A DNA stretch of 57,991 bases from a candidate division WWE3 bacterium UBA1397 (lineage in GTDB: Bacteria; Patescibacteriota; WWE3; UBA101185; UBA10185), in contig DBQJ01000021.1 in the NCBI GenBank assembly GCA_002305205.1, positions 6,448 through 64,438 of the forward strand, in the 5' to 3' direction. Under the pieces are notes generated by a model. It searched no databases, had not been told where the DNA came from, and saw only the letters and a list, made by a program, of their open reading frames with translations. The position numbers and the translations under genes are program-made. Shown piece by piece: positions 10,306 to 33,890 of this stretch (the first letter of the stretch is position 1; each line of letters begins with the position of its first letter).

Positions 10306-10353
10306 ATTGGCTCCCCATTGTTGTATTTATCCGAAGTTTAATACCCGTATTTG
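10306..10353 (+). repeat. attL-type junction; 48-bp direct repeat copy 1 (core + P' arm of A/C type)
   Basis: attggctccccattgttgtatttatccgaagtttaatacccgtatttg matches 25649-25696 at 45 of 48 positions (hand alignment). Confidence 0.85.
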
Positions 10354-10380
10354 CTTCCATCTAGCCTTTAGTGTTAATAT
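10351..10380 (+). promoter_or_regulatory. candidate sigma70-type promoter for the T-box-leuS transcript
   Basis: TTGCTT (10351-56), an 18-nt spacer, then an extended -10 TGtTAATAT (10372-80). Sequence inspection only. Confidence 0.35.
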
Positions 10381-10384
10381 GCTC

Positions 10385-10693
10385 ATGTTAGTGAAAACCG
10401 AATACACCTAAACGCTATGACTCGGAGTCCATGAATAACCAATAAATGGGGTCTAGCCGACGAGCGGCGGGAAGAACAGATACTTTGCAGAGTATCCCAG
10501 TAGAACCTGACGGAAGCCCCCGTTATCACAGGCTGAACTATAACCTTGCCAAGTTTCTTGGTTTCAAGAGTAGCCAATGAGCGTCTAACAGCGATGTTGG
10601 ACTAAAAGAGGGTGGTACCACGATATTGCGAAACCTATCGTCCCTCAGCATTATTTCTGTATTTTTACAGGCATAATGCTGGGGGATTTTTTT
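10385..10693 (+). promoter_or_regulatory. T-box leader (tRNA-sensing riboswitch) with intrinsic terminator
   Basis: T-box sequence AGAGGGTGGTACCACG at 10607-10622. F-box-like CCGTTA at about 10519. Two AGAGTA motifs. Terminator hairpin ccctcagcattat/ataatgctggggg (10642-10685) followed by a T-run. It lies immediately upstream of leuS. Confidence 0.75.
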
Positions 10694-10734
10694 GTTGTAC
10701 TAAGTTTATGCTTTAATTAAAGCAAGGAGATTAT

Positions 10735-12591
10735 ATGAAAAAAGAAAATAATGAAAATAGTGTATATGATTTTAAACAGGTAGAAGATAAGTGGTATAAG
10801 CAGTGGTACGGAAATAATATCTACGGTGTTCAGATAGATAGTACCAAGCCCAAGTTTTACTGTTTGGACACTTTTCCTTATCCTTCTGCTGATGGCGTAC
10901 ATATAGGATATGTCAAAAGCTTTGGAGGTATGGATGTTGTAGCCCGTTACAAACGAATGAAGGGTTTTAATGTTCTTTATGCAATGGGTTGGGACACACT
11001 TGGACTTCCAGCAGAAAACTACGCAATTAAAACTGGTATTCACCCAAGAGAAATAACCTACAAAAGCATTAAAAACTATAAGGAGCAGTTTAAGCACTTC
11101 GGTATTAGTTATGACTGGAACAGGGAAATAGATACAGCGGAGCCAATATATTACAGATGGACTCAATGGTTGTTTTTGCAAATGTACAAAAAAGGTTTGG
11201 CATACAAAAAGGAGTTTCCAGTTAATTGGTGCGAAAGCTGTAAAACCGTTATCTCAAACGAACAAGTTGTAGACGGAAAATGTGAAAGGTGCAAAGGTAC
11301 GGTCATACAAAAGCCATTACTGCAATGGTTTTTCAAAGTAAGTGCCTATAAAGAACGCTTGTACAAAGATACAGAAAAGCTTAACTGGGAAGAAAAATAT
11401 CTTAATCCGCACAGGAAATGGATTGAAGGTGTAAGAGATTGGTGCGTATCAAGACAAAGATATTGGGGTCCTCCTATACCAATTATTTATTGCCCAAAAT
11501 GTGGGGAAGTTCCTGTACCTGAAAAAGATTTGCCAGTTTTCTTGCCGATGAATGTAGATTTCACACCTACAGGTGAGCCACCCTTAGCTAAAGTAGACCA
11601 CTTTGTGAACACTACTTGCCCCAGGTGCGGCGAAGCAGCGAAGCGAGAGACTGACACCATGGACACTTTTGTGACTTCTGCATGGTATCAGTTTAGGTTT
11701 ACCGACCCAAATAATGACGATATGTTTGCATCACCTACTCAATTGGGTTATTGGGGTTGTGTCGACCACTATCAAGGAACTATTGAACATATTACAGCAC
11801 ATTTGATATATGCAAGGTTTGTAACGAAAGTTCTTTATGACGAAGGTCTCGTATCTTTTGACGAGCCTTTTCCTAAATACACACCTGTTGGATTACTTGT
11901 GGACAAAAGCGGTGAAAAATACTCTAAAAGATTGGGAAACGCTCCTGATACAAATGAACTGATTGCAAAATATGGTGGCGATTTGTTAAGACTTTCCTGT
12001 CAGTTTATTACCCCTTTTGATGACATCTCTCGCTGGGGAGAATCCGATATTGTAGGTGTTAAAAGGTTCTTTGATAGTGTATGGAACATCTTTGTGACTA
12101 AAGTTACTGATGATGTTGCAGAAGTACCTAGCAAAATAAGCTCTGACTTGAATAGACTTATAGGGGATGTAGAAGAAGCCATTGAAGCAATGAAGTTCAA
12201 TGTGGCAATTAGCAAGATGATGGTTTTTATTGCCTCTCTTAAAGACTTTGATACTGTCCCTGCTGAGGTGTGGGAAACATTTGTGAAACTTATTGCACCC
12301 TTCGCACCATTTGTTGCTGAGGAAATGTGGTCTCGCATGGGGTATACAACATCAGTACACTTAGCAAGTTTTCCGATTGTAAACAAAATCAGCTTGGAAC
12401 AGACTACTGTAAGAGTAAGTATTCAAGTTAATGGCAAACTTAAAGGTGTACTTGACCTTCCAGTAGGTGCTTCAAAAGAAGTTGCAGTTAAGGATTCGTT
12501 AGAAACAGAACGAGTTAGTCAGGTGTTAAAAGACAAGAACTATTCCGTTATTTATGTGCAGGATAAAGTTATTAACTTTGTGACTGAGTAG
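10735..12591 (+). CDS. leuS: leucyl-tRNA synthetase lacking the CP1 editing domain
   Basis: Colinear with bacterial LeuRS (PYPS..HIG., GWD.LGLPAE, NW.ES..TV.SNEQV, RDW.VSRQRYWG, ETDT.DTF, IEH...HL.Y.RF, C-terminal VNGK domain). Only 618 aa: RKWIEG joins directly to VRDWCVSRQRYWG. Confidence 0.85.
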   Translation: MKKENNENSVYDFKQVEDKWYKQWYGNNIYGVQIDSTKPKFYCLDTFPYPSADGVHIGYVKSFGGMDVVARYKRMKGFNVLYAMGWDTLGLPAENYAIKTGIHPREITYKSIKNYKEQFKHFGISYDWNREIDTAEPIYYRWTQWLFLQMYKKGLAYKKEFPVNWCESCKTVISNEQVVDGKCERCKGTVIQKPLLQWFFKVSAYKERLYKDTEKLNWEEKYLNPHRKWIEGVRDWCVSRQRYWGPPIPIIYCPKCGEVPVPEKDLPVFLPMNVDFTPTGEPPLAKVDHFVNTTCPRCGEAAKRETDTMDTFVTSAWYQFRFTDPNNDDMFASPTQLGYWGCVDHYQGTIEHITAHLIYARFVTKVLYDEGLVSFDEPFPKYTPVGLLVDKSGEKYSKRLGNAPDTNELIAKYGGDLLRLSCQFITPFDDISRWGESDIVGVKRFFDSVWNIFVTKVTDDVAEVPSKISSDLNRLIGDVEEAIEAMKFNVAISKMMVFIASLKDFDTVPAEVWETFVKLIAPFAPFVAEEMWSRMGYTTSVHLASFPIVNKISLEQTTVRVSIQVNGKLKGVLDLPVGASKEVAVKDSLETERVSQVLKDKNYSVIYVQDKVINFVTE

Positions 12592-12647
12592 GACTTGATT
12601 TTGCTTTACTATTTTACAAAGGGCACGCCGTTATGTAGGCTATTTTT

Positions 12648-13067
12648 ATGATAAATAGACGCTTAACGGTTGCCCAGCGTGTCTTCATTCAAAAATACAT
12701 TGAGACGGGTTCTTTAACCGAGGCAGCTTTAGTTGCTTATAAAGGTGTTAAAAACAGGCATACGGCGGCGGTAATTGGAAGTCAAAACATAAGAAAACCA
12801 GTAGTTACCCAACACTTGCAGAACTTTGATGAACGGTTTGAAATGTCCGATTACAAGCTGATTGAAAAACTTAAGCAAGCATTGGAAGCGTATAAGTATA
12901 TTTATAACCCTATTACCAATGAACAGATGAAAGTACCTGACTACTTTATTCAGTTGAAGGCTTTGGAGTTTATCTTTAAGCTTAAAAACTATTTTGCTTC
13001 GGTGGATAAAACGGAACCAGTAACCCACGGTATCGAAGTTAAGTTTCACTACAACAAGACAAAGTAA
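12648..13067 (+). CDS. terminase small-subunit-like HTH protein
   Basis: The N-terminus LTVAQRVFIQKYIETGSLTEAALVAYKGVKNRHTAAVIGSQNIRKPVV matches the Terminase_2-type pattern (LT.KQ..F...Y...N.T.AA..AGYS..TA...GS.LL..P.V). Confidence 0.55.
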   Translation: MINRRLTVAQRVFIQKYIETGSLTEAALVAYKGVKNRHTAAVIGSQNIRKPVVTQHLQNFDERFEMSDYKLIEKLKQALEAYKYIYNPITNEQMKVPDYFIQLKALEFIFKLKNYFASVDKTEPVTHGIEVKFHYNKTK

Positions 13068-13188
13068 ATCTGCTGTAGCCTTCTGGGTTCGGGGAGTCCC
13101 AGCAATCGAGCTGGGGTGTCTTCGCTTGTGAAAAGGGATTTCCAGGGTTACTAAGGCTGTAGGTGATAAAATCAGCTTATTAGATTAT

Positions 13189-14262
13189 ATGAGATTAGAT
13201 GTATCCCCCTTATGGGAAGAACTTAAAATATATGACCAGGTAAGTCTTGTAATGCAGCTGCTGGATTCGTTTTCCAAAGATACAAAGGATTTTACAAGAA
13301 AACTTGTACTTGTTAGGAATACAGACGATGAGGAGTCTGTTAAAAAGGATGCTTCATTATACGGATTCAGAAGCGAGGGAACATTGCTCGAACTGAAAAA
13401 TAATAAGGTTTTCAAAAGTTTCAGGAAAATCAGCAAAACTGCTTCACCATCGTATTCTGTGAAAATTGACTGGAAAAGTCTCCTAAAATATGCAGAAAAA
13501 CTTCACGATTTAGAGGCTGTGGATTCTTTCGCACTTGAAAGACCCAAAAAAAGTATGTTTCAGACCATAACCGAGATTACAAACAAGGAACATAGTAACG
13601 AGTTTGTGGTAACGGAAAAGATTTTAGGTACTTATTTTGACAATCCAGGGTTGGCACAAAAGCTAAGGAGAGAAGATAGCCCAGATACAAAAGCACCGTT
13701 CCTGACCGTTCTACGAGCCTTAGAACAGGAGAAAAAGATTCAATTGATGGAAATAGCCTTTGATTTTAGAAAACTTCCGTTACCTGCGAAAGATAAAGAT
13801 TTTGAAAGAGGAATACCTGTAGGTGAGGAAATAGAGTTTTTTACAGCAGAGCACTGTTTTGTAAATGTAAAAGTAATTGATGCTGCAACACTTAAAAAAG
13901 TATTTGGGACAACCAAGTCCGCCTATTTGGGAAAACCTAAACTATTTGAAAAACAAGGGTGGGGATATTTGCAGTATGGTAGTAGCAAGCCAGCAAAAAT
14001 AGGGAAGGTTTCGTCAAAACATTGGAAGCTGCTGGGGTTCACTTTTGATGTTTTAGGTGCAGAAAGAACAATACCTTCTGTTTTTGAAGAAATCGCAAAT
14101 AAGAAAGACCTGCAAAAATCAAAATCAGTAAACAGCATAGCCCCCATGGTATCGGTAATTGAATACGCCAATAAAGAACTGCAAAAAGGAAATAAACTCA
14201 AAGGTAGGTTAGCAATCGTTGTCGATGAAAAAAGAAATACTGTAAAGGCTACCATTGTTTAG
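13189..14262 (+). CDS. hypothetical protein (element A)
   Basis: 357-aa ORF with coding-like composition. No motif recognised. Confidence 0.5.
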   Translation: MRLDVSPLWEELKIYDQVSLVMQLLDSFSKDTKDFTRKLVLVRNTDDEESVKKDASLYGFRSEGTLLELKNNKVFKSFRKISKTASPSYSVKIDWKSLLKYAEKLHDLEAVDSFALERPKKSMFQTITEITNKEHSNEFVVTEKILGTYFDNPGLAQKLRREDSPDTKAPFLTVLRALEQEKKIQLMEIAFDFRKLPLPAKDKDFERGIPVGEEIEFFTAEHCFVNVKVIDAATLKKVFGTTKSAYLGKPKLFEKQGWGYLQYGSSKPAKIGKVSSKHWKLLGFTFDVLGAERTIPSVFEEIANKKDLQKSKSVNSIAPMVSVIEYANKELQKGNKLKGRLAIVVDEKRNTVKATIV

Positions 14263-14410
14263 AGTGCATTTTCCTTAATCATTTTTGGGGCTATCTGACT
14301 ATAGCCAGGATTCTGTTGCATTTACTTTGTAAACCCTGACCCATTTTTACTTAAAACACTCTCAAACCCTCCATTTATTTTGTTCAGTAAGGTCTCTTTA
14401 CAATAAACCT

Positions 14411-14674
14411 ATGAGACCAGAAAAGATTTATGAACAAAAGCCCTTCGCAATAAATGACATTGCACTTGCAGCAGCAGTTGTGTGTTTTCATCCATTGGTA
14501 GGTGTGGAAAAGTCTCCATTAAATCCACAAAAAGCGGTCTTCTTGTTTGAAGATTCTGAGCAGGTGCGGGAACTTGCTGATAAGTTTTGGAGAAAAGATT
14601 TGTTTGTTGAGGCTTCGGAATACTTTTCAAACATAAAGTTTTTGAAGGGGCGGATAAATGCCGAACATCTATGA
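14411..14674 (+). CDS. small conserved element protein (DUF5659-like by memory)
   Basis: 87 aa. Paralogous to 21989-22252 (shared ...LAA/LVAT...P...V.K..P.K.VF.F......Q...DKFWR..L.VE......N.K..K.R). Its stop overlaps the next start (ATGA). Confidence 0.5.
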   Translation: MRPEKIYEQKPFAINDIALAAAVVCFHPLVGVEKSPLNPQKAVFLFEDSEQVRELADKFWRKDLFVEASEYFSNIKFLKGRINAEHL

Positions 14675-14799
14675 GCGAAGTTGATGACAAAGCAATGTTG
14701 GAATACCTGCGTCAATTAGCGTGTTTCCTTCTGTCGCTGAGTGAAGGCAAGAAAGATGTGAGGAGAAAATATGAAAAAAGAACAAGAAAATCAAACTGA
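14671..14799 (+). CDS. micro-ORF (42 aa) conserved in all three elements
   Basis: Hand translation MSEVDDKAMLEYLRQLACFLLSLSEGKKDVRRKYEKRTRKSN. It shares the EYLRQ.A.FLL motif with 31316-31492 and DLADFLLSYF with 22255-22404, and is translationally coupled on both sides. Confidence 0.4.
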   Translation: MSEVDDKAMLEYLRQLACFLLSLSEGKKDVRRKYEKRTRKSN

Positions 14800-15658
14800 A
14801 AGTCCATTATCAAACTGGATAGTGTTTCCAAGAAGCATAGCCAGCTTATATAAAAACGGTGAAATCAACCGAGCAGAGTTTTTCGTATACTGCTACCTGC
14901 GTATTCAATGTAACCCATACGGAATCTGTACAACACATATGGAAGCAATTAGAGATGATGTCTTCGGAAAAGAAGGTGGTAAGAAATCAGTTTCCAAAAA
15001 CTATGTTAATAAAATACTTTTGTCCTTGAAAAGTAAGAGGTTGCTATTTTATTTGGATAGAACTGGGAGGTCAGGTTCGTTTGAGGTTCATTTTCCTGAT
15101 TTTATCGACCCTACCAAGAAAATCACCAGCATCGAACACTTGTTTATCAAGGAGGCAAGTCAGCAGGAGATTGGTGCTGTAGATGACAAAAAGTCAGAGG
15201 ATAGTACAGAGGTTGAAGTAAAAAATCAGAAGTTGGTAGTGCCAGATAATGTTGATTTAGCTATTAAACAGGGTATTAATGAATCTGGAGAGTTCAGAGG
15301 TTATAATAACGATACCGATACTCAAAAGAAGATTGAAAATACCGATTTATCGGTTTCTTATAAAGTAGGAAGCAAAGACAGGGAAAGAACCGATACCGAT
15401 TATGTGTGTAAAAACCCTACCGATAGTTTCATACCGACACTTTATGAGGAAGAAACAGCTAAATCGATAGCTGAAAGCGTTGGAGAAAAATGCATGGATA
15501 GATATCTTGGGCTGATTAAAAAAGGTTATTTCTGGGTTTTGGAGAAAGCATACGGTGAGTACAGCGAAGATGTCGGGAAAGGCAATAAAATAGATGTACC
15601 CGCCGCTTATATAAACGGAATAATTATTAGGATTCTTAAAGAAAGAATCGGAAAGTAA
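14771..15658 (+). CDS. winged-helix-like DNA-binding protein (putative replication/regulatory protein), paralog of 31464-32348
   Basis: 295 aa. The N-terminal 115 aa are clearly homologous to the element C copy (WI.FPR.I.S.YKNGEINR.E......LR.Q.NPYGI...LEAIR.DVFGK...NYVNKILLSLK.KR). C-terminal AYINGIIIRILKE is DnaD-like. Confidence 0.6.
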   Translation: MKKEQENQTESPLSNWIVFPRSIASLYKNGEINRAEFFVYCYLRIQCNPYGICTTHMEAIRDDVFGKEGGKKSVSKNYVNKILLSLKSKRLLFYLDRTGRSGSFEVHFPDFIDPTKKITSIEHLFIKEASQQEIGAVDDKKSEDSTEVEVKNQKLVVPDNVDLAIKQGINESGEFRGYNNDTDTQKKIENTDLSVSYKVGSKDRERTDTDYVCKNPTDSFIPTLYEEETAKSIAESVGEKCMDRYLGLIKKGYFWVLEKAYGEYSEDVGKGNKIDVPAAYINGIIIRILKERIGK

Positions 15659-15682
15659 CAATTTCTGCTTAGTTTTTGAAAT

Positions 15683-17266
15683 ATGTATGGATTAGAAGAA
15701 CTAAAACCAAAAGTTGGAACAAAACTGAAAGCTGTTGATTATGAAAGAGTCAGCACGCCTGGACAGGTTGTAAACGGTCATTCAATGGAGGTGCAGAAAA
15801 AGATGTTCACTACGCTTGTCGAACAGCACGATATTGAGGTTCTTAAAACATTTGAAGACCCTGGACGTTCTGCAAGAGATTTGAATAGGCGTGACATAGA
15901 AGAACTGATGGATTTTTGTGATGATAATGCCGCAGTACTTGATGTTGTTTTTGTACAAGATACTTCACGGCTTTGTCGCAATGTTCAAGACCACTTAGCC
16001 CTCAAAGCCTTCTTGAAGAAGCGTAATATAAAACTTATTCCTTTAGACGGTTATTTTGGAGAGGGAGACGAAGCGGAGTTTGCAGATGTTGTGGTGGCGG
16101 CTATAAATCAGCTGGAAAGCCGTAGAACTGCGAAAAAAACAAAAAGAGTAATGAAGGCTCTTGCTGAGAAGGGTATAAAACCTGGGATGTCAGGGATAGG
16201 CTATCTAAACTCATACCAGAAAGACAAACCCATATACCCAGACCCCGAACGCCGATACTTTATTTATGATATTTACGAGCTATGGTTGACAGGTAATTAT
16301 TCCGTTGCCAGTATCGCTGATATTGAGTTTTCAAAAGGATTTCGTACAAAAAGTGGCGGAAAAGTTCAGAAAAACACAATTACCAATATCCTCAAAAATA
16401 TACTTTATGCAGGTGGTTTGAAATATGATGGCGTAGAATATGAAAAGGCGGCACATGAAGCCATCGTTCCACCTGACTGGTACAACCGCTCTCTTGCTAT
16501 GTTTGAGAAGAAAAACAAAGGTGCCAACCGAAACAGAAAACATACAACCTTATTAGCAGGTTATTGCTACTGCTTAAAATGTGGTCGTCAGATGGCGGCT
16601 GAGTATCACCCACGGGCAAACTACTATTCTTGTGGCAGTTGTGAAAAGACCAATGTACCACTTGAAAAAGTTGACAAGAAAGTGCGGGCTTTCTTTCATG
16701 GTACTGTGTTTTCTGAAAAAGCATTGGAAAATCTACGAAATGTTTTATATGAAGTCAAAGCCGAGCAAGGCATTAGTGTTCCTGAACAACTTAAAACACT
16801 TAGACAAAGGCGAGATATTTTGGATAAAAAAATGAAGCAGCTTGAAGATAAGATGTTTGGTGGTGATGACCTCGTCGATTCCGAAAGACTAAAAGAACGC
16901 TACAAGCCCCTTAAAGAGGAACTTAAACAGGTAGATGAGCAAATAGCCCAGATGGATAAACCCTCAACTACTCTTAAAGATTCTGAGATTGAAAAAGTCA
17001 TCAAAGGTATGCGGAACATTGGTGAGCTTTATGATGCCATGACAAAGATTCAGCAAAAGCAGTTTTTACGCTTTTTTATTTCAAAGGCTTTCTTGGAAAA
17101 GGAACGGCTGATAACGAGTTTTGAGTATGTACCAGAGTTTAAGGCTTTAATATCAAGAGACTTGGTTCGTATAAAGTCCAATTGGCTCGCTTGCTGGAAC
17201 GATTTTCGTACATTAGAAATAGAGAGTTTTGTTTATGAGGAAGCTTTAGCAGTATTAAGCGCATAA
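15683..17266 (+). CDS. large serine recombinase (element A)
   Basis: Resolvase catalytic domain (AVDYERVSTPGQ with the catalytic Ser; DTSRLCR), recombinase domain, Cys4 zinc ribbon (CLKCG...CGSC), and coiled coil. The last 22 codons lie beyond the core at 17191. Confidence 0.9.
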   Translation: MYGLEELKPKVGTKLKAVDYERVSTPGQVVNGHSMEVQKKMFTTLVEQHDIEVLKTFEDPGRSARDLNRRDIEELMDFCDDNAAVLDVVFVQDTSRLCRNVQDHLALKAFLKKRNIKLIPLDGYFGEGDEAEFADVVVAAINQLESRRTAKKTKRVMKALAEKGIKPGMSGIGYLNSYQKDKPIYPDPERRYFIYDIYELWLTGNYSVASIADIEFSKGFRTKSGGKVQKNTITNILKNILYAGGLKYDGVEYEKAAHEAIVPPDWYNRSLAMFEKKNKGANRNRKHTTLLAGYCYCLKCGRQMAAEYHPRANYYSCGSCEKTNVPLEKVDKKVRAFFHGTVFSEKALENLRNVLYEVKAEQGISVPEQLKTLRQRRDILDKKMKQLEDKMFGGDDLVDSERLKERYKPLKEELKQVDEQIAQMDKPSTTLKDSEIEKVIKGMRNIGELYDAMTKIQQKQFLRFFISKAFLEKERLITSFEYVPEFKALISRDLVRIKSNWLACWNDFRTLEIESFVYEEALAVLSA

Positions 17267-17330
17267 TTACCCCACACCTTCACACACTATATCTCTAACC
17301 TTTTTATCCTTATAGTTGTAGAATGGGGCT

Positions 17331-18131: not shown

Positions 18132-18385
18132 ATCTTTATCAATAATATAACCCGTTTTTAACTTCAATAAAGTAATATACTATGATAATATAGGGTTAAT
18201 GCCTAATCCCACTGCTACAGCTATGACTTATTCAGTTATTCTTACAAACAATCTACCCGCCCAACAAATAACTCAAGTGGTTGAGGATTGGAAGGTATGT
18301 AGGATTCTTTCCCCAGAAGAACTAAGGTCAAAAGCAATAGACGAAGATGCAAAGAATGTAAAAAGTACAAATAAAGACAAGCAAA

Positions 18386-25701: not shown

Positions 25702-25741
25702 AAACCAACAAAAAATCACTATTTACTTATCCACGAGCCTT

Positions 25742-25760
25742 ATATTCAATATATGAATAT
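25742..25760. promoter_or_regulatory. candidate ArsR operator palindrome
   Basis: ATATTCA-atata-TGAATAT: 7-bp perfect inverted arms overlapping the arsR start codon. Confidence 0.4.
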
Positions 25761-26061
25761 GAGTTCATATAACTGTTGTAAGCCAGACGAACATACTTAT
25801 AGACAGGTAACTACTATATCCTCACTTCTAAAACTTGTTGGAGAAGAAAGTAGATTGAAGATTCTCTGTATTTTGATGAAGGGTCAGCATTGTGTTTGTG
25901 AGATATTGGAACATCTTAAACTTTCCCAAAGCCTTGTATCCCATCATCTTCAGGACCTTAAAACAGCAAGTTTAATAGTGGATGAGAAAAAAGGTCAGTA
26001 TGTCTATTACTCATTAACGGAAGAAGGTAAAAGGGTTACAAAGTTAATTTTCCAATTATAA
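25753..26061 (+). CDS. arsR: ArsR/SmtB-family metalloregulator
   Basis: LKILCILMKGQHCVCEILEHLKLSQSLVSHHLQDLKTASLI is the classic ArsR HTH with a CVC site, plus an N-terminal CC pair. Confidence 0.85.
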   Translation: MNMSSYNCCKPDEHTYRQVTTISSLLKLVGEESRLKILCILMKGQHCVCEILEHLKLSQSLVSHHLQDLKTASLIVDEKKGQYVYYSLTEEGKRVTKLIFQL

Positions 26062-26063
26062 CT

Positions 26064-26753: not shown

Positions 26754-26755
26754 TT

Positions 26756-27736: not shown

Positions 27737-27746
27737 AAGAGGTTAT

Positions 27747-28238
27747 ATGGCTAAAAATCTTTTCAGACTACAGACAACCGTTTTGTTAGTTGGAACATTA
27801 TTTGCTTGGTTTACTGTCTATACCGATTTTTCCCGTTTCTATAATCTATATGGTTCTCTGACCAGAATATCCGGTTGTACTATACCTAATCCTGTTACAA
27901 CACCTTGTTTTTACGGGGCATTTGCGTTCCTGTTAGGTTTTATTTGGTCCTTTAACATCCTTAAAAAGGTTCTGAAAGACGAAACTGTGGTTAGTGAGCA
28001 AAGGAATCTAGGGTATCTGTTAGTTGCAGGCACACTATTTGCCTGGGGCAACTTTTCTTACGAACTAATAAAATACTATACTGCAACAACTGCCGTGAAG
28101 GTATCTTGTTCTGGGGTAGCTACAAACAATGTATTTTTAACTTCCTGCTTTTATGGCTCCGTTATCTTCCTGGCAGCTCTAATCATTTCTACAGTTATAA
28201 GAAAAAGTGTTTTACGAATAAAACCCGAGGCAAACTGA
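27747..28238 (+). CDS. 4-TM membrane protein made of two internal repeats, each with a Cys pair
   Basis: Repeat 1 LVGTLFAWF...SGCTIPNPVTTPCFYGAFAF. Repeat 2 VAGTLFAWG...CSGVATNNVFLTSCFYGSVIF. Confidence 0.55.
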   Translation: MAKNLFRLQTTVLLVGTLFAWFTVYTDFSRFYNLYGSLTRISGCTIPNPVTTPCFYGAFAFLLGFIWSFNILKKVLKDETVVSEQRNLGYLLVAGTLFAWGNFSYELIKYYTATTAVKVSCSGVATNNVFLTSCFYGSVIFLAALIISTVIRKSVLRIKPEAN

Positions 28239-28242
28239 AAAA

Positions 28243-29364
28243 TTAGTTTGTAAGGTTATATTCAATAAAAGAAGAATCATCATATTTTCCATTCTGCATC
28301 CTATGAGAGATTCCATCTGATTTTAGCTTAACCTCGACCTTTAGTTTTCCATTAGCATTTTGAAAATCTTGCGGTGTTACTTTATACAGAAAGTACGGTT
28401 TTTCGGAAAAAGCATTAGCTCCTCTGGTTTGTGTATAGAAAGCAGTAAAATCCGGCGAGTTAGATGAGAATAAATAGTACAGTTTCTTATCCTCTTTTAA
28501 GTTTGTTCCGGTAGCAGCGATAAAAAGATAATCTCCAGCCTTCAGGTTTGTTGATGAAGTTGTAACCGTGTATTTCTCCGGACCCGTGTAACCATTTGAT
28601 GCAGATTGTTTCACAATGGTTCCTAAATCATCGTACACCTCACTAATAATTGGGTACTGTTGGTCATTGATACCGTAATAAACTTGACTATCTTCCGCAT
28701 TAGTTTCCTTTTCTCCGGCTAGCAGTTCCTTTATTGTTGGTTTATATCTGTTGTTTATGGCTTGTTGGTTAAATGCAGAATAATCTGGATTTTGCTCAAG
28801 ATTGTTTTCGATATTAAAATCTGTGTTTGCTTTGTTTAAGGTGTTCCAACTAGCCATTTTTGCCGGATAGGTTTCGTTAGCGTATTTATTCCACATTTCA
28901 TCTGTCATCTGGTTGTTGTAATAGGCACGCATATTATCAAGATATTCTTTATCTAACGCATAAAGTTGTTTTTTTTCGTCTAGCCGGTTGTTGATTAGCT
29001 CTGTGAACTTCTCCCAAGCCTGCGGGTCTATCTTTGCCGCTTGTTCTGTTAAATCAACGGATTTTTTAAGGTTAGTATTTAAGTTGTTTTCAAAAAGGTT
29101 TATAGCTTCTAATCCTTTTTCAGAACGGATTATAGTTCCCTTAACATAGTCGCTAATTGCTAGGTCTTTTATTGAATAAATTGACGCTGCTTCGGCTGAT
29201 TGGTGAAGCAAGTCTCTGGCATTGTTAATATCGGCAAATACTCGCTTTTGCTGATAAGCATCACGGGCGTTCAAATAAGTACCCGCTACAAACAGCCCTG
29301 CAAAACCTAAACAAAAAACAACAAATATAACTCCAAGTATTTTCAAGATTTTCTTAACTTTCAT
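28243..29364 (-). CDS. N-terminally anchored extracytoplasmic protein
   Basis: 373 aa with a single N-terminal TM. Its start overlaps the upstream gene's stop by 4 nt. Confidence 0.55.
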   Translation of the reverse strand: MKVKKILKILGVIFVVFCLGFAGLFVAGTYLNARDAYQQKRVFADINNARDLLHQSAEAASIYSIKDLAISDYVKGTIIRSEKGLEAINLFENNLNTNLKKSVDLTEQAAKIDPQAWEKFTELINNRLDEKKQLYALDKEYLDNMRAYYNNQMTDEMWNKYANETYPAKMASWNTLNKANTDFNIENNLEQNPDYSAFNQQAINNRYKPTIKELLAGEKETNAEDSQVYYGINDQQYPIISEVYDDLGTIVKQSASNGYTGPEKYTVTTSSTNLKAGDYLFIAATGTNLKEDKKLYYLFSSNSPDFTAFYTQTRGANAFSEKPYFLYKVTPQDFQNANGKLKVEVKLKSDGISHRMQNGKYDDSSFIEYNLTN

Positions 29365-29819
29365 TTTAGAGCCTCCTTTTTGAATAAAGAAAATAAATAG
29401 AAAAGATAAAAAGATGCAGCCAAATCTAACGGCACCCAGGTGCTTCTTGGAAGTTCCGGAACAACAAATGGATTAAATAAAACAAGAATGGAGATTAAAC
29501 CAAATAACCTAATGTCTGAAACATACTTTTTATACCTTACAAGAAGGTAGGAACCTATCACGATAGTGAAAAGTCGCAGGGCATCGTAATAATCAAAATC
29601 GTAATCGTCCGCTTCAAATGGGAGCACCGCCAACAGATACATACCACATAGCGGTAACAAGCATAATTGTGCAAGTTTGTTTAGGTTATTTTTAGTAAAT
29701 AACGATGAAATAAAGTGCTTTATCTTAATAAAATTATCTCGAAATAACAGCACAACTACAGGGATTCCAATGAAGAATAAAATAGGCAATATAGTGTTGT
29801 ATACCGTACTTTCTGACAT
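29361..29819 (-). CDS. integral membrane protein (4 TM), first gene of the element C minus-strand operon
   Basis: 152-aa hydrophobic ORF whose start abuts the structured leader. Confidence 0.55.
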   Translation of the reverse strand: MSESTVYNTILPILFFIGIPVVVLLFRDNFIKIKHFISSLFTKNNLNKLAQLCLLPLCGMYLLAVLPFEADDYDFDYYDALRLFTIVIGSYLLVRYKKYVSDIRLFGLISILVLFNPFVVPELPRSTWVPLDLAASFYLFYLFSLFKKEALK

Positions 29820-29930
29820 AACAAAGGGACTACCTTCTTCGTAGCCCTAGCTTGTCAGCATTGAACCCTCGGAAAGGTAGCCCCTTCGTAGGTTCAATGC
29901 CTTTTAAGTCGGCGTGACTGACAAGCTAGG
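29820..29930 (-). ncRNA. structured 5' leader, copy 2 (same architecture as 20697-20806)
   Basis: P1 CCUAGCUUGUCAG/CUGACAAGCUAGG; P2 GCAUUGAACC/GGUUCAAUGC. The loop AAGGGGCUACCUU pairs with AAGGUAGUCCCUU just before the AUG. A TATAAT box lies 14 nt upstream (29950-29945, minus strand). Confidence 0.55.
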
Positions 29931-30143
29931 TTTTTACTTCTCTGATTATATCGTCATTAGGCTATATAGCATAGGATTTTAATAAAATGTGTAAGGATTA
30001 CACCCTTTTTGCCTATTTAGCCTATTCAAAAATATAAGTGCAAAGTGTATGGATATAACCGGTTATGTGTATTTTGAGCCTCGAAAATTGAACTATCCCT
30101 ACCCCATACACCCCTAATTATTGTTACGATGTAAAATAAAACT

Positions 30144-31154
30144 ATGAAAACTGAATCTAGCAATGATTCGGTGTCTTGGAAAACGGACGCCGGAGAAGAT
30201 GGCACTCTGTTTCGAATGTGGAGATTCTTCTCAAATATCAGCGACAGCCTATTATTAAAAGTTGCAATCAACAAGGAGTTTGGTCAGGATGTCGGAGAAA
30301 TACGAGATAAGTTAAGTATTGATGTGACACGGCTGCGTTCACTTCTTTTGAAGAAGATTTCTAACCCTAGGGTTCTATATTATGCTTTACGCTATAAAAA
30401 CGACCTACCAAAAGACGAAAGTGGTTATGTTGAGGGAAACGAAAGCTATGAACAGGAATACGACGGATTGGGTGCAAAAGAACCTAGATATCTTAAAGAC
30501 ACCGATGCAGCCGCATTGTTACTAGGATTAAAAGAGTTAGGTGTCCTTGAAAAGGAGTATGTTTCGAAGAATGTTGAAGATGATGTAGCAAAGTTGCTGA
30601 AAAAATACCATTTAAGTTATAGGTACTTTCGTCGTGTAGAGAGTATAGTTTTGTATAACGATTTCCCACCTGTACCTGCTTTGTGGGATATGGACTATAG
30701 AGATTTTGTAGGTGATGACTTAACAAAAGAGGACCGCAAAAAATTAGAACCGTTGCTCAAGAATATGGATAAAGAGTTTAAGGCGACGCTAGATACAGAG
30801 GTTTACCGAACGCCCGTTACTTACTTTGATAAGGATAAAAAATGCGTTGTTGTTGAGATATATCCGGACACTTCTTTAGAGCTATTCAAAAGTAAAAATT
30901 ACAAATCTAAACTATTAGAGTTTCAGAAATTACTTTTAGGTTATAGATACACAGATATTAGTTACGATGGCTATGCCGATGCTCTTTACTATTACTTTAC
31001 AACATATAAACATATGAGCCAGAAAGAGGCTTTGTCAAAGATGAAGAAAATCTATGGTCGTAAATATGTTAAGGGTTTTGATAGCGAGGTGACGGCGAGA
31101 GCAAGTACAAGAAAACGCCGATTTGAAAAATACGCTAAAGACATAAGTGAGTAA
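30144..31154 (+). CDS. hypothetical protein (element C)
   Basis: 336-aa ORF. No motif recognised. Confidence 0.5.
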   Translation: MKTESSNDSVSWKTDAGEDGTLFRMWRFFSNISDSLLLKVAINKEFGQDVGEIRDKLSIDVTRLRSLLLKKISNPRVLYYALRYKNDLPKDESGYVEGNESYEQEYDGLGAKEPRYLKDTDAAALLLGLKELGVLEKEYVSKNVEDDVAKLLKKYHLSYRYFRRVESIVLYNDFPPVPALWDMDYRDFVGDDLTKEDRKKLEPLLKNMDKEFKATLDTEVYRTPVTYFDKDKKCVVVEIYPDTSLELFKSKNYKSKLLEFQKLLLGYRYTDISYDGYADALYYYFTTYKHMSQKEALSKMKKIYGRKYVKGFDSEVTARASTRKRRFEKYAKDISE

Positions 31155-31159
31155 TCTAC

Positions 31160-31195
31160 CTAACGCCAGCGATAACCTACAGCGTTAGCATTTTT
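31160..31195 (+). terminator. candidate intrinsic terminator after 30144-31154
   Basis: Stem ctaacgc/gcgttag followed by cattttt. Confidence 0.45.
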
Positions 31196-31275
31196 CCCTA
31201 TTCCATAGTGCTACTCTAAAAATTGCTAGAAAAGTTTTCACCGCCTGGGGGTTGTGGTAACACAAAGCGGGTTTG

Positions 31276-31304
31276 ACCGACCTCCCCCAGGGGTCGGTTT
31301 TTTA
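31276..31304 (+). terminator. candidate terminator/attenuator hairpin upstream of the element C micro-ORF
   Basis: Stem accgacc/ggtcggt with the loop tcccccagg, followed by tttttt. The loop can also pair with cctggggg at 31244-31251. Confidence 0.4.
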
Positions 31305-31315
31305 TAAGCAAAAAT

Positions 31316-31492
31316 ATGAGCGAAAAAGCAAATGTACAAAAAAAGAATAAGGAAAATGATACGCAAATTGTAAGTGACCAAGATATGGCTGAATACCTTC
31401 GACAGTTTGCCGCTTTTTTACTAACGGTATTTTCTGAAAATAAAATTATTTCTGGGGGTCGCTATGGCGAATGCGAAACAAATAAAAAATGA
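31316..31492 (+). CDS. micro-ORF (58 aa), element C counterpart of the conserved micro-ORF
   Basis: Hand translation contains MAEYLRQFAAFLLTVFSENK, matching MLEYLRQLACFLLSLSEGKK of element A. It overlaps the start of the next gene. Confidence 0.4.
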   Translation: MSEKANVQKKNKENDTQIVSDQDMAEYLRQFAAFLLTVFSENKIISGGRYGECETNKK

Positions 31493-32348
31493 GGAAAACC
31501 TTTTATCTGATTGGATAGCATTTCCCAGAAAAATCTCAAGTATGTACAAGAATGGTGAGATAAACAGACCGGAGTACCTTGTTTGTTTACACTTACGGCT
31601 TCAAGCTAATCCCTATGGAATAAGCTCTACTTGCCTAGAGGCAATAAGAAATGATGTGTTTGGAAAGAGTACGGGTCATAAAGGTGTAACTCTAAATTAT
31701 GTAAATAAAATACTACTTTCCTTAAAGCGTAAGAGGATGTTGTACTATCAAGACAGGGCTGGGAGGTCAGGTTCGTTTGAGATTCGCTTTGCCGATTTTA
31801 TTGACCCTAACAAGAACATTACTGATATAAAACACCTATTTGAAAGTGACTATAGTAAGAGAAGTAGCACACCTTTGAGAGTATCCGTATCAGAGGTTAC
31901 TGCAGAACTCAAAGAAGAAAATCAGAGGTTTGAAAATCCAATAAATGAGGGGGTGAAAACTAACGAAGATGTTGGTGCAAAGGGAATAATCACAGGTTAT
32001 AATAATGATACCGATATACAAAACAAGATTGAAAATACCGATATATCGGTTTCTTATAAAAAGGGAGATGGGGAAAAACCACTACCCGAGTATGTGTGTA
32101 GAAACCCAACCGATAGTTTCGCACCGAACGGGTATGAGGAAAACACAGCTAAAGAAATTGCGGGTGGGATTGGCGAAAAATGTATGGACCGATACCTAGC
32201 CCTTATACGGAAGGGTCAGTTTGGTGTTTTGGAAAAAGCGTTTGGAGAGTTTAAGGAAGACTTGGAGAATGGAAAAAACCCTAGTGATAAGCCCGCTTAC
32301 CTTAACAGCATAATTACAAGAATGCTTAAAGAAAAAATTGGAAAATAG
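31464..32348 (+). CDS. winged-helix-like DNA-binding protein, paralog of 14771-15658
   Basis: 294 aa. See 14771-15658. Confidence 0.6.
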   Translation: MANAKQIKNEENLLSDWIAFPRKISSMYKNGEINRPEYLVCLHLRLQANPYGISSTCLEAIRNDVFGKSTGHKGVTLNYVNKILLSLKRKRMLYYQDRAGRSGSFEIRFADFIDPNKNITDIKHLFESDYSKRSSTPLRVSVSEVTAELKEENQRFENPINEGVKTNEDVGAKGIITGYNNDTDIQNKIENTDISVSYKKGDGEKPLPEYVCRNPTDSFAPNGYEENTAKEIAGGIGEKCMDRYLALIRKGQFGVLEKAFGEFKEDLENGKNPSDKPAYLNSIITRMLKEKIGK

Positions 32349-32354
32349 TTTTAT

Positions 32355-33890
32355 ATGTATGGTTTAGAAGAACTAAAACCAAAAATAGGAACAAGATTAA
32401 AAGCCGTCGATTACGAGCGTGTAAGCACGCCTGGTCAGGTAATAAACGGGCATTCGATGGAAGTGCAAAGAAAACTTTTTACAACTCTAGTAGAGCAACA
32501 CGATATTGAAGTTCTCAAAACTTTTGAGGACCCAGGGAAATCTGCCAGAAATCTTAATCGAAGGGACATTGAGGAGCTTATGGATTTTTGTGATGACAAC
32601 TCTGACCTTTTGGATGTTGTTTTTGTGCAGGATACCTCAAGGCTTTGTAGAAATGTAGCCGACCATTTAGCCTTAAAAGCATTTCTGAAAAAAAGAGATA
32701 TAAAACTCATCCCGCTTGATGGTTACTTTGGCGATTCTGATGAGGGTGAGTTTGCGGATATTGTTGTTGCAGCAATTAACCAGCTTGAAAGTAGAAGAAC
32801 AGGTAAGAAAACAAAGCGTGTAATGCTAGCACTCGCAGAAAAGGGTTTGAAACCAGGAATGGCTCCACTTGGCTACCTAAACTCCTATCAAAAGGATGTT
32901 CCGATTAAACCAGACCCCGAAAAGAAGCATTTTATTTACTGTATTTATGAGATGTGGCTAACCGGAAGCTACTCTGTAAAAGCAATCGCTGATATCCAAT
33001 TTGAAAAGGGCTTTCGTTCTAAAGAAGGTAAGCAAGTTCAAAAAAATACGATAACAAATATCCTAAAAAATATACTCTATGCTGGTGGATTATTTTACGA
33101 CGGAATAAAATATGAAAAAGCGATGCACGAAGGTATAGTTCCTTTGGATTGGCATTACCGTTCTCTTGCTATGTTTGAAAAGAAAAACAAAGGTGCAAAT
33201 CGAAATAGAAAATATGTAACGCTGTTAGCCGGATATGCCACTTGTCTGAAGTGTGGAAATCAAATGTTTGGTGAATATCATCCAAAAGGTAATTATTATC
33301 GCTGTCAGCATTGTGCAAAAACTAATGTTTCCCTTGAAGATGCCGACGATAAAGTTTCAGCCTTCTTTCACGGAACCGTATTTACAGAAGAAGCCTTGCG
33401 TAAGTTAAGGGATGCGCTCTACGAGGTCAAAAAGGACCAAGGCTCGAGTGTTCCAGAACAGCTAAAGACTTTAAGGCAACGAAGGGACGCTCTGGACAAG
33501 AAAATGCGAGTAATTGAGGACAAGATGTTCTCCGGTGATGAGTTAGTGGATTCTGAACGCTTAAAAGGTAGATATCAGCCACTAAAGGATGAGTTGAGGA
33601 TTGTGGAAGGTCAAATTAAAGACCTAGATAAGCCTTCTACCAATCTTAAAGATTCCGAGATTGAGAAGATTATCAAAGGTTTGAGAAACATTGGTGACCT
33701 TTACGATGCAATGACCAAGCCACAACGAAAGCAGTTTATAAGGTTTTTTATCTCAAAAGCATTTCTGGAGAAGGAGCGGGTTGTAACGAGTTTTGAGTTC
33801 GTACCAGAGTTTGAGGCTTTAGTTACAAGGGATTTAGTTCGTATAAGGGCTAATTGGCTCCCCCGCGTGGATTCGAACCACGAACCTTGA
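32355..33890 (+). CDS. large serine recombinase (element C), 3' end antisense to tRNA-Asn
   Basis: 56 of the first 61 residues are identical to the element A enzyme (hand count), with the same domain layout. The ORF ends PRVDSNHEP, encoded by the complement of the tRNA T-arm. Confidence 0.9.
   Translation: MYGLEELKPKIGTRLKAVDYERVSTPGQVINGHSMEVQRKLFTTLVEQHDIEVLKTFEDPGKSARNLNRRDIEELMDFCDDNSDLLDVVFVQDTSRLCRNVADHLALKAFLKKRDIKLIPLDGYFGDSDEGEFADIVVAAINQLESRRTGKKTKRVMLALAEKGLKPGMAPLGYLNSYQKDVPIKPDPEKKHFIYCIYEMWLTGSYSVKAIADIQFEKGFRSKEGKQVQKNTITNILKNILYAGGLFYDGIKYEKAMHEGIVPLDWHYRSLAMFEKKNKGANRNRKYVTLLAGYATCLKCGNQMFGEYHPKGNYYRCQHCAKTNVSLEDADDKVSAFFHGTVFTEEALRKLRDALYEVKKDQGSSVPEQLKTLRQRRDALDKKMRVIEDKMFSGDELVDSERLKGRYQPLKDELRIVEGQIKDLDKPSTNLKDSEIEKIIKGLRNIGDLYDAMTKPQRKQFIRFFISKAFLEKERVVTSFEFVPEFEALVTRDLVRIRANWLPRVDSNHEP

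What the first reader, a model, noticed from the sequence alone, without database searches (positions are those of the whole stretch)
10306..33863. Three serine-recombinase elements stacked head-to-tail at the 3' end of tRNA-Asn
Four sites share the core ATTGGCTC:
- 10306: host flank | core | arm X.
- 17191: recombinase A | core | arm Y.
- 25649: recombinase B | core | arm X'.
- 33853: recombinase C | core | tRNA-Asn body.

Arms X (10317-10353) and X' (25660-25696) are 34/37 identical. The two recombinases whose excised attP would carry these arms (A and C) are close paralogs, with 56 of the first 61 aa identical. Recombinase B is unrelated apart from NWL and would pair with the different arm Y.

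This is the junction pattern expected for a tandem array: B-core-P'(A) ... RecA-core-P'(B) ... RecB-core-P'(C) ... RecC-core-B'(tRNA). It implies repeated capture at one tRNA site by two recombinase lineages that use the same crossover sequence. Large serine recombinases normally need an intact attB, so stacking at hybrid att sites is unusual. The order of arrival cannot be deduced from the junctions.
Basis: partly seen in the sequence, partly recalled or inferred. Interest (0 to 1): 0.75.

Follow-up and report, generated by a model that had tools for sequence, protein, structure and literature searches.

The report
Stacked serine-recombinase elements at tRNA-Asn
Three small mobile DNA elements sit one behind the other at the end of a tRNA-Asn gene of an uncultured WWE3-type bacterium. 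Each carries its own serine recombinase gene, and that gene runs across the element's own attachment site. The same site is empty or filled differently in sister strains, so serine recombinases here target a tRNA gene and stack, which is textbook behaviour only for tyrosine integrases.

Summary
The core ATTGGCTC lies on the + strand at 10306, 17181 (not 17191), 25649 and 33853. The last three copies each sit inside the 3' end of a large serine recombinase (LSR) gene, and the fourth overlaps the 3' end of tRNA-Asn(GTT).

Contigs from about 17 other samples carry identical flanking proteins. They show the exact predicted empty site, single-element sites and at least six other arrays, so this is a live integration hot spot.

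New points:
- The core shared by all lineages is TGGCTC. It encodes Trp-Leu in every recombinase and is the complement of tRNA positions 71-76 (GAGCCA).
- Each recombinase ORF crosses its own attP. Integration therefore replaces its last 14-25 codons with the neighbour's arm or with the tRNA (tail PRVDSNHEP).
- Both recombinase lineages belong to large, mainly CPR families that sit against tRNA-Asn.
- Left target arms from 22 junctions show no conservation. The target appears to be core plus tRNA half, which explains the stacking.

Caveats: a 34-bp exact repeat makes junctions 1 and 3 dependent on assembly. No excised circle was found.

This is a new variant of a known kind.

The parts
10306..10313 (+). 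Junction 1: host flank | core ATTGGCTC | P' arm of element A. The shared core TGGCTC is 10308-10313; the proposed crossover dinucleotide TC is 10312-10313.
   Evidence: the same flank plus core is seen in L002-L011
10314..10364 (+). Arm X, the P' arm of element A. It holds the distal half-site TATTTATCCGAA and 16 codons plus a stop (PIVVFIRSLIPVFASI*). These codons would complete RecA in the excised circle.
10314..17188 (+). Element A, 6.9 kb. Genes: LeuRS-like 10735-12591, small-terminase-like HTH 12648-13067, 357-aa ORF 13189-14262, DUF5659 14411-14674, 295-aa winged-helix protein 14771-15658, and RecA.
   Evidence: A 91% identical copy lies next to the same flank in another sample (L002).
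15683..17266 (+). RecA, a large serine recombinase of the A/C lineage. Its own coding sequence ends at Trp-Leu (17183-17188). Codons 17189-17266 come from element B and give a Y-type tail.
17181..17188 (+). Junction 2: RecA 3' end (P arm of A) | core | P' arm of B.
   Evidence: It lies inside one contig of an independent assembly (L063).
17189..17266 (+). Arm Y, the P' arm of element B. It encodes ACWNDFRTLEIESFVYEEALAVLSA*, the native tail of B-type recombinases.
17189..25656 (+). Element B, 8.5 kb. Genes: HNH endonuclease 17331-18131, SDH-type protease 18386-19435 (-), membrane ORFs 19707-20696 (-), 258-aa ORF 21153-21929, DUF5659 21989-22252, 454-aa P-loop-like ORF 22630-23994, and RecB.
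24073..25701 (+). RecB, a large serine recombinase of the B lineage (the database start is 24088). Its own coding sequence ends at Trp-Leu (25651-25656). The last 14 codons come from element C's arm X'.
25649..25656 (+). Junction 3: RecB 3' end | core | P' arm of C.
25657..25701 (+). Arm X', the P' arm of element C. It encodes PIVVFIRSLIPVLV*.
25657..33860 (+). Element C, 8.2 kb. Genes: ArsR 25753-26061, DUF2703/thioredoxin 26064-26753, ArsP-type permease 26735-27736, membrane ORF 27747-28238, 373-aa ORF 28243-29364 (-), DUF6804 29361-29819 (-), 336-aa ORF 30144-31154, 294-aa winged-helix protein 31464-32348, and RecC.
32355..33890 (+). RecC, a large serine recombinase of the A/C lineage. Its own coding sequence ends at Trp-Leu (33855-33860). 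The last 9 codons (PRVDSNHEP*) are the antisense of the tRNA acceptor and T arms.
33853..33860 (+). Junction 4: RecC 3' end | core | tRNA body.
33855..33929 (-). tRNA-Asn(GTT), intact. Positions 71-76 (GAGCCA) are the complement of the core TGGCTC.

Best explanation
Window 10306-33860 is a tandem array of three small integrative elements (6.9, 8.5 and 8.2 kb). They are inserted at the 3' end of the tRNA-Asn(GTT) gene of a WWE3-like (CPR/Patescibacteria) bacterium.

**Shown**
- Each element carries a large serine recombinase gene at its right end.
- That gene runs across the element's own attP. The crossover region is the pair of codons Trp-Leu (TGG CTC), which is the complement of tRNA positions 71-76.
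- The last 14-25 codons of the native protein are encoded at the element's left end.
- After integration, each recombinase ends in whatever lies to its right. RecC ends in the tRNA (PRVDSNHEP). RecB ends in C's arm. RecA ends in B's arm.
- The site is empty, singly occupied or differently stacked in sister strains.

**Inferred**
- Strand exchange is a 2-bp staggered cut, most likely at TC (tRNA A72/G71).
- The recombinase's own ...TGGC then rebuilds the tRNA's G73-CCA end.
- The enzymes recognise essentially the core plus the tRNA half of the target. The junction next to the tRNA therefore stays a usable target after every integration.
- Elements pile up there with the newest next to the tRNA, giving the order A, then B, then C.
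- Recombination between any two junctions can remove or reshuffle blocks.
For: **LSR identity**
- Pfam Resolvase + Recombinase hit all three proteins.
- The catalytic R-V-S motif and four zinc-ribbon Cys are invariant in the A/C family.
- The family profile hits the TP901-1 integrase N-terminal domain (4e-23) and the A118 integrase C-terminal domain (1e-9, profile positions 181-478).
- An AF2 model of a B-family member shows the N-terminal domain, recombinase domain, zinc ribbon and coiled coil.

**Site-specific insertion**
- The exact empty site is present in L006.
- L016 and L004 hold single elements. Other stacks occur in L002+L012, L005+L018, L003, L014 and L021.
- All of these contigs carry 100% identical flanking proteins.
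- An A-like element (91% nt identity) lies next to the same flank in another sample.

**ORF across attP**
- Every recombinase at this locus reads xWL through TGGCTC.
- X-type and Y-type tails keep their length. Their pN/pS is 0.14-0.43 with pS of 0.4-0.8.
- B-family proteins with Y-type tails have a median length of 558 aa, against 525-534 aa for those with tRNA tails.

**Family-wide tRNA-Asn targeting**
- 16 of 23 RecC homologs carry long tRNA read-through tails. So do 77 of the best 120 RecB homologs, counting long and short forms; the control is 1 of 120.
- tRNA-Asn abuts the recombinase gene in WWE3, other Patescibacteria and a complete TM6 genome.

**Half-site target**
- 22 distinct left arms next to X-type P' arms carry at most 0.38 bit per position.

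**attP symmetry**
- The dyad axis falls at or next to TC in 11 of 13 reconstructed sites. Perfect 8-10-bp distal inverted repeats are present.

**Stacks elsewhere**
- L057, the contig holding P0182 and P0011, and L034 and L035.
Against: - No excised circular form was found. The attP pattern gave 0 hits in viral contigs.
- No A/C recombinase with its own X-type tail appears among the homologs.
- Junctions 1 and 3 share a 34-bp exact repeat, and an independent k=31 assembly breaks there. The order flank-A...B-C rests on the original assembler.
- The dyad axis in A/C and D types lies on a base, not between two bases. The crossover dinucleotide is therefore not pinned down.
- The 22 left arms come from different hosts and recombinase orthologs. 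Each enzyme could have co-adapted to its own arm.
- Canonical LSRs do not recombine attP with attL or attR (PMC3783163).
- L013 and L014 show an X-like arm on an element that ends in a B-like recombinase.
Confidence: 0.8

Rival explanations
1. The three-element order is an assembly choice. The chromosome carries only flank-[C]-tRNA, and A+B is a separate 15.3-kb circular co-integrate. Alternatively, both states coexist and interconvert by recombination between junctions 1 and 3.
For: - Junctions 1 and 3 share a 34-bp exact repeat.
- Logan contigs of the same run (SRR5321232) are exactly window 10310-25678 (A+B) and 25653-40358 (C plus host). They break inside that repeat.
- Single C-like occupancy exists elsewhere (L016).
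Against: - A 34-bp repeat is spanned by ordinary reads, and the arms differ from base 35 onward.
- An A-like element lies directly next to the same flank inside one contig from another sample (L002).
- Even in this reading, A and B are stacked, because junction 2 is inside a contig.
Confidence: 0.12
2. The array was not built by successive integrations into hybrid sites. It arose either by insertion of a pre-formed multi-element circle or by homologous recombination between strains that carried different single elements.
For: - Modules are shared and shuffled. A and C share a 2.4-kb right-hand module at 70% nt identity.
- L016 is a mosaic of B cargo and C backbone, and L021 carries C cargo.
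- Flanks are identical between strains.
Against: - Every junction falls exactly at the 6-8-bp core inside a recombinase 3' end. This is the signature of site-specific exchange, not homologous exchange.
- Stacks with other lineage combinations recur in other hosts.
Confidence: 0.15
3. The elements are fixed relics. Their recombinases have lost their native C-termini and are inactive, and the variation between strains reflects old events only.
For: - All three recombinases carry foreign tails.
- No circular form was found.
- Recombinase-less segments exist at the site (L018, L024).
Against: - At least eight configurations occur among contigs whose flanking proteins are 100% identical.
- The recombinase ORFs are intact, and the tails show purifying selection.
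Confidence: 0.05

Closest known systems
SCC/SCCmec composite islands driven by CcrAB or CcrC at the 3' end of rlmH (orfX) in staphylococci (own knowledge)
   Same: - Large serine recombinases drive both.
- Insertion is at the 3' end of a conserved gene, which stays intact.
- A short direct repeat marks every junction.
- Cassettes lie in tandem head to tail, including cassettes without a recombinase.
- Blocks can be lost or exchanged between junctions.
   Different: - The target here is a tRNA gene, not rlmH.
- There is a single recombinase per element, at the element's end, and its ORF crosses attP. The ccr genes are internal.
- NCBIfam CcrA, CcrB and CcrC scores are 35-71 bits against cut-offs of 700-900.
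- The host is a CPR bacterium.
Tandem genomic islands and 'accretion' at tRNA genes by tyrosine integrases (Islander/TIGER class)
   Same: - The tRNA 3' end is the target and the tRNA is regenerated.
- Arrays are strain-variable.
- Islander reports 125 tandem arrays of two or more islands (PMC4383910).
   Different: - The enzyme family differs. No tyrosine integrase was found in 10306-33860.
- Only 6-11 nt are duplicated, rather than a tRNA fragment.
[quoted passage not shown]
SSV-type integrases of archaeal fuselloviruses (own knowledge)
   Same: attP lies inside the integrase ORF and the target is a tRNA gene. Integration therefore splits the integrase gene, and the intact gene exists only in the circular form.
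   Different: - SSV-type integrases are tyrosine recombinases of archaeal viruses.
- There the gene is cut into two large parts. Here only the last 14-25 codons are exchanged, and a full catalytic protein remains.
Phage large serine integrases (A118/LI, TP901-1, phiC31, Bxb1)
   Same: - The domain architecture is the same.
- attP is about 50 bp and quasi-palindromic, with distal inverted repeats.
- The core shared with attB is short.
   Different: - Canonical enzymes read both attB half-sites and do not use attL or attR as targets (PMC3783163).
- Their attP lies outside the int ORF.
- They are not known to target tRNA genes.
Integration-dependent immunity of mycobacteriophages such as BPs (own knowledge)
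   Same: attP lies inside a gene's 3' end, so integration changes the protein's C-terminus and thereby its behaviour.
   Different: There the affected gene is the repressor, the integrase is a tyrosine recombinase, and the effect (loss of a degradation tag) has been shown. Here an effect of the tail swap is only a hypothesis.

Membership tests
Large serine recombinases (serine integrases) | N-terminal resolvase-type catalytic domain with the serine nucleophile | tested here: met
   PF00239 hits RecA, RecB and RecC with E-values of 1e-22 to 2e-24. R22 and V23 are invariant and S24 is nearly invariant in the A/C family. The profile hits the TP901-1 integrase N-terminal domain at 4e-23.
Large serine recombinases (serine integrases) | Recombinase domain followed by a zinc ribbon with an inserted coiled coil | tested here: met
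   PF07508 hits all three proteins. C297, C300, C317 and C320 are invariant. The A118 integrase C-terminal domain (4kis) matches profile positions 181-478. The AF2 model shows long paired helices at 337-441 between zinc-ribbon strands.
Large serine recombinases (serine integrases) | Short quasi-palindromic attP centred on a 2-bp crossover, with only short identity to attB | tested here: inconclusive
   Dyad symmetry with 8-10-bp distal inverted repeats was found. Identity to attB is 6-11 nt. The axis lies between T and C in B types but on the C in A/C and D types.
Large serine recombinases (serine integrases) | Catalysis of attP x attB exchange, with directionality controlled by an RDF | not testable with these tools
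   No RDF could be recognised. The 294/295-aa winged-helix protein next to RecA and RecC is only a candidate.
SCC cassette chromosome recombinases (CcrA/CcrB/CcrC) | Score above the NCBIfam equivalog cut-off | tested here: not met
   The best score is 71 bits against cut-offs of 700-900.
SCC cassette chromosome recombinases (CcrA/CcrB/CcrC) | Integration at the 3' end of rlmH | tested here: not met
   The target is tRNA-Asn.
tRNA-targeting genomic islands of the tyrosine-integrase class | Tyrosine integrase (PF00589) carried on the island | tested here: not met
   No such hit was found among the ORFs of 10306-33860. The only Phage_integrase gene nearby is a host XerC/D-like gene outside the array.
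tRNA-targeting genomic islands of the tyrosine-integrase class | Island bounded by the tRNA gene and a displaced tRNA fragment | tested here: not met
   Only tRNA positions 71-76 plus 2-5 nt are repeated.
SSV-type integrases | attP inside the integrase ORF, with a tRNA gene as target | tested here: met
SSV-type integrases | Tyrosine recombinase fold and catalytic residues | tested here: not met
   The proteins are serine recombinases.

The most novel reading that the evidence does not exclude
The recombinase gene straddles attP, so the element makes a different recombinase isoform in each topological state. The circle makes the native tail. An element next to the tRNA makes a tRNA-encoded tail. 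Inside a stack, an element makes the neighbour's tail.

The tail swap could be a built-in state sensor. It could set stability or directionality, taking over part of the role of an RDF, and it could couple an element's mobility to the identity of its downstream neighbour.

Together with a target that needs only the tRNA half, this would make the tRNA-Asn 3' end an open-ended, integron-like cassette rack in CPR bacteria.
Probability: 0.25. Interest if true: 0.85.

Novelty: new variant of a known kind. Interest (0 to 1): 0.65.

Why it matters
**tRNA targeting by serine recombinases.** Serine integrases are the workhorses of genome engineering. They are described as needing two specific half-sites and as not using tRNA genes (PMC4383910; PMC3783163). 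Here two deep lineages, with thousands of relatives mainly in CPR bacteria, use the 3' end of tRNA-Asn.

**A relaxed target.** These enzymes appear to need only the tRNA half of the target. They tolerate occupied sites and rebuild the tRNA's CCA end from their own Trp codon. If confirmed, this gives a natural class of integrases with a near-universal, conserved landing site.

**Mobile DNA in small genomes.** It would also explain how tiny CPR genomes collect and reshuffle mobile cargo at one locus. The cargo here includes a LeuRS that appears to lack its editing domain and a metal or arsenic resistance module.

**A testable switch.** It provides a test case for regulation by swapping the end of a gene on integration.

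Tried and rejected
- **Excised circles.** The attP patterns for A/C-type and B-type elements gave 0 hits in viral contigs. Contigs with Y-tailed or X-tailed recombinases have no terminal overlap. Several contigs of about 6.4 kb looked like possible circles, but the one I checked (L064) is a chromosomal junction with tRNA-Asn.
- **Failed exact-protein look-ups.** Two look-ups failed because of start-codon choice: DUF1189 as 288 aa and RecB as 542 aa.
- **Backbone proteins.** PHROGs gave nothing for them apart from the small-terminase-like HTH and the HNH endonuclease. AF2 plus Foldseek of the 294-aa protein gave only a generic winged helix (E >= 0.019). The elements therefore cannot be assigned to phage satellite, plasmid or IME.
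- **Left-arm mimicry.** I considered that P arms might mimic the host left arm so that attB is regenerated. This holds only for the D type, where 22 nt are identical. It does not hold for A/C (10 of 20) or B (7 of 20) by inspection, so I dropped it as a general explanation.
- **Alternating lineages.** I considered whether stacking requires neighbours of different lineages, as in the A/C-B-A/C order here. L013 and L014 show B-like next to B-like, so this is not a rule.
- **Literature.** Searches for serine recombinases at tRNA genes, or in CPR bacteria, found no description.
Full report
**1. The observation**

ATTGGCTC lies on the + strand at 10306, 17181, 25649 and 33853. A fifth copy lies on the - strand at 11140.

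The 8-mer count alone is not remarkable: 1.82 matches are expected and 4 of 100 shuffles reach 5. The placement is what matters. The copies at 17181, 25649 and 33853 lie on the coding strand inside the last 40-90 nt of three long ORFs: 15683-17266, 24073-25701 and 32355-33890. The copy at 33853 also overlaps the 3' end of tRNA-Asn(gtt), which lies at 33855-33929 on the - strand.

Sites 1, 3 and 4 share ATTGGCTCCCC. Sites 1 and 3 share 34 nt exactly. GC steps up at both outer borders.

**2. The genes**

All three ORFs are large serine recombinases (LSRs).
- Each has Pfam Resolvase plus Recombinase.
- In the RecA/RecC family the R-V-S catalytic motif and four zinc-ribbon cysteines are invariant.
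- The family profile matches the TP901-1 integrase catalytic domain (4e-23). It also matches the A118 integrase C-terminal domain over profile positions 181-478 of 514.
- RecA and RecC are 79% identical. RecB is a distant LSR, 21-23% identical to them, so it is not unrelated.

The cargo differs between the elements.
- Element A carries a LeuRS that scores above the TIGR00396 cut-off but is 618 aa against a model of 843 positions. It also carries a small-terminase-like HTH, a DUF5659 protein and a 295-aa protein.
- Element B carries an HNH endonuclease, an SDH-type protease, membrane proteins, a DUF5659 protein and a 454-aa protein.
- Element C carries ArsR, a DUF2703/thioredoxin protein and an ArsP-type permease.

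A and C share only the first 38 nt (the arm) and a 2.4-kb right-hand module, which holds the 294/295-aa gene and the recombinase. The 294-aa protein has a generic winged-helix N-terminal domain.

**3. The site in sister strains**

I looked up the two host genes that flank the array by exact protein sequence. This returned contigs from about 17 samples.
The two flanking genes there are next to each other.
- L016 holds one C-like element, and L004 holds one element of another lineage (D).
- L002+L012, a single 59-kb contig, holds an A-like element 91% identical to A next to the same flank. A recombinase-less segment and a C-like element follow.
- L005+L018, L003, L014 and L021 hold further combinations.

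At least eight configurations therefore exist behind identical flanking proteins. This is a live hot spot, and the 23.5 kb is not core genome.

The host is related to candidate division WWE3. The right flank is syntenic with WWE3 MAGs at 55-74% amino-acid identity, including a tRNA-Ile(tat).

**4. Anatomy of the junctions**

Across all recombinases at this locus the invariant core is TGGCTC. It is read as Trp-Leu, in the contexts NWL, TWL, DWL and LWL. It is the complement of tRNA positions 71-76, GAGCCA. The base before TTGGCTC varies (A or C) and follows the recombinase, so the exchange lies to its right.

Every recombinase ORF continues past the core into whatever follows.
- The tRNA gives PRVDSNHEP.
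- X-type arms give PIV(V/A)FIR(S/T)LIPVFA(S/T)I.
- Y-type arms give A-x-W-(N/D)-D-F-R-T-(L/M)-EIES... over 25 codons.

In the window RecA therefore carries B's tail, RecB carries C's tail and RecC carries the tRNA tail.

The tails behave as coding sequence. Their length and stop position are conserved. Their pN/pS is 0.14-0.43, with synonymous divergence of 0.4-0.8. The native full-length recombinase is therefore encoded only across attP, that is, in the excised circle. Predicted native lengths are 518 aa for RecA, 553 aa for RecB and 516 aa for RecC.

An AF2 model of a Y-tailed B-family protein puts the crossover inside a helix. That helix follows a 30-residue disordered linker after the zinc ribbon. 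The tail forms two more helices at pLDDT 65-73.

**5. Reconstructed attP sites**

Joining each recombinase end to its own left arm gives quasi-palindromes with perfect 8-10-bp distal inverted repeats, for example TTCGTATA...TATACGAA. The dyad axis is on the last C of TGGCTC in 8 of 9 A/C-type elements and in the D-type element. It is between T and C in two B-type elements.

The D-type arm differs from the tRNA immediately after that C. TC is therefore the only dinucleotide near the axis that all lineages share with the target. I take TC (tRNA A72/G71) as the most likely crossover, with an uncertainty of one base.

Everything to the left of TC then comes from the element. The recombinase's TGGC supplies the tRNA's discriminator G73 and its CCA end. 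In a host whose tRNA-Asn gene lacks an encoded CCA, the recombinase reads Leu-Leu instead of Trp-Leu (L064).

**6. The families**

RecC has few close relatives (23 at E <= 1e-20). Most of them (16 of 23) end in ...NWLPRVDSNH(E/Q)P or a variant, which is read-through into a tRNA.

RecB has 3618 relatives at E <= 1e-20. Among the best 120:
- 77 end in tRNA read-through (the regex control gives 1 of 120);
- 11 have Y-type tails, with a median length of 558 aa against 525-534 aa for the tRNA-tailed group;
- 2 have X-type tails.

In species-representative genomes the A/C family abuts tRNA-Asn(gtt) in WWE3, in other Patescibacteria and in a complete TM6 genome. X-like arms lie 6-11 kb upstream of those recombinases.

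Many of the best 150 hits of a profile search over 1.84 billion representatives also end in tRNA-derived peptides.

Stacks occur elsewhere too:
- L057 holds another LSR lineage followed by an A/C-type element next to a tRNA.
- One 36-kb contig holds a B-family recombinase with an X-like tail (P0182) and an A/C recombinase with a tRNA tail (P0011).
- L034 and L035 each hold two LSRs.

**7. Why stacking works**

A metagenome scan for the X-type arm returned 25 contigs. The 22 distinct sequences to the left of the core are unrelated to each other, with at most 0.38 bit per position.

The simplest reading is that these enzymes recognise the core and the tRNA half and tolerate any left arm. After an integration, the junction recombinase-end|core|tRNA still offers that half, so the next element can enter there. 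This predicts that the newest element lies next to the tRNA, giving the order A, then B, then C.

This step is inferred. Canonical serine integrases do not use attL or attR as targets (PMC3783163), and the left arms come from different hosts.

**8. Caveats**

- An independent k=31 assembly of run SRR5321232 yields window 10310-25678 and window 25653-40358 as separate contigs. They break inside the 34-bp repeat shared by junctions 1 and 3. Junction 2 is inside a contig and is therefore solid.
- Junctions 1 and 3 could in principle be resolved as chromosome flank-[C]-tRNA plus a 15.3-kb circle holding A and B. Only reads can decide this. A and B are stacked in either case.
- No circular form was found.

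**9. Comparison with known systems**

The closest working analogue is the SCC composite island of staphylococci. It shares LSRs, the 3' end of a conserved gene as target, a repeat at each junction, and cassettes without recombinases. These proteins are not Ccr recombinases, however, and the target is a tRNA.

The closest architectural analogue is the SSV-type archaeal integrase, where attP lies inside int and the target is a tRNA. That enzyme is a tyrosine recombinase.

Tandem islands at tRNA genes are common for tyrosine integrases. [quoted passage not shown] My searches of the held library found no later description, but that library is incomplete.

**10. Verdict**

It is a new variant of a known kind: LSR-driven integrative elements whose recombinase gene spans attP, which target the 3' end of tRNA-Asn and which stack.

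Interest is 0.65. The finding is surprising for specialists in serine integrases and in CPR mobile elements, and it is directly testable. It rests on sequence inference only, and the function of the tail swap is unknown.

Noticed in passing
window 10735-12591: Element A carries a leucyl-tRNA synthetase. It scores 621.9 bits against TIGR00396 (cut-off 548.4). It is only 618 aa against a model of 843 positions and matches in three stretches, so the CP1 editing domain appears to be missing. This is a mobile, editing-less LeuRS as cargo.
   Followed up: partly
window 40309-40384, 41816-41889, 41956-42031: The host encodes a tRNA-Ile with anticodon TAT, which is unusual in bacteria, and two tRNA-Met genes close by. 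The same tRNA-Ile(tat) lies near the site in WWE3 MAGs.
   Followed up: no
L006, L004; window 10292-10313: The host left arm of the 'empty' site is identical for 22 nt (TATATTAAGTACAGATTGGCTC) to the 3' end of the D-type recombinase gene. The empty site may hold a fossil of an earlier recombinase end.
   Followed up: partly
L013/L014 (reverse complement) 1340-1520; L049: A B-type Y arm runs for about 110 bp. A second ATTGGCTC and an X-like arm then follow, yet the element ends in a B-like recombinase. This is either a secondary insertion site or a chimeric element.
   Followed up: partly
L018 locus coordinates 4203-7424; L024 242-2895: Recombinase-less segments sit between two core copies. One, next to the tRNA, carries adh_short, Mrr and DUF3800 plus two short ORFs, the tRNA-proximal one (110 aa) ending beside the tRNA. 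The other is a 2.6-kb segment between two X-like arms in a WWE3 MAG. They are decayed or cassette-like members of the arrays.
   Followed up: partly
L016 and L021 compared with window 18131-19475 and 28244-29412: Cargo is shuffled between lineages. The single element in L016 combines an X-type arm, B-type cargo (83% nt identity) and a C-type backbone (79%). A B-like element in L021 carries C-type cargo (78%).
   Followed up: partly
window 17161-17172 and 10327-10338; also L016, L057, L027: The distal attP half-site motif TTCGTATA / TATACGAA also serves as codons. It reads Val-Arg-Ile in the recombinase body (V495, R496 and I497 are invariant or nearly so in the family) and Ile-Arg-Ser/Thr in the tail.
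   Followed up: partly
L028, L033, L034, L035: In MAGs labelled Gammaproteobacteria or Woesebacteria, related recombinases are followed by tRNA-Asn-like 3' halves. ARAGORN does not call these as tRNAs, so they may be displaced tRNA fragments or decayed targets.
   Followed up: no
window 25753-28238: Element C carries a metal or arsenic-type module: an ArsR regulator, a DUF2703/thioredoxin protein, an ArsP/SaoE-like permease and a membrane protein.
   Followed up: no
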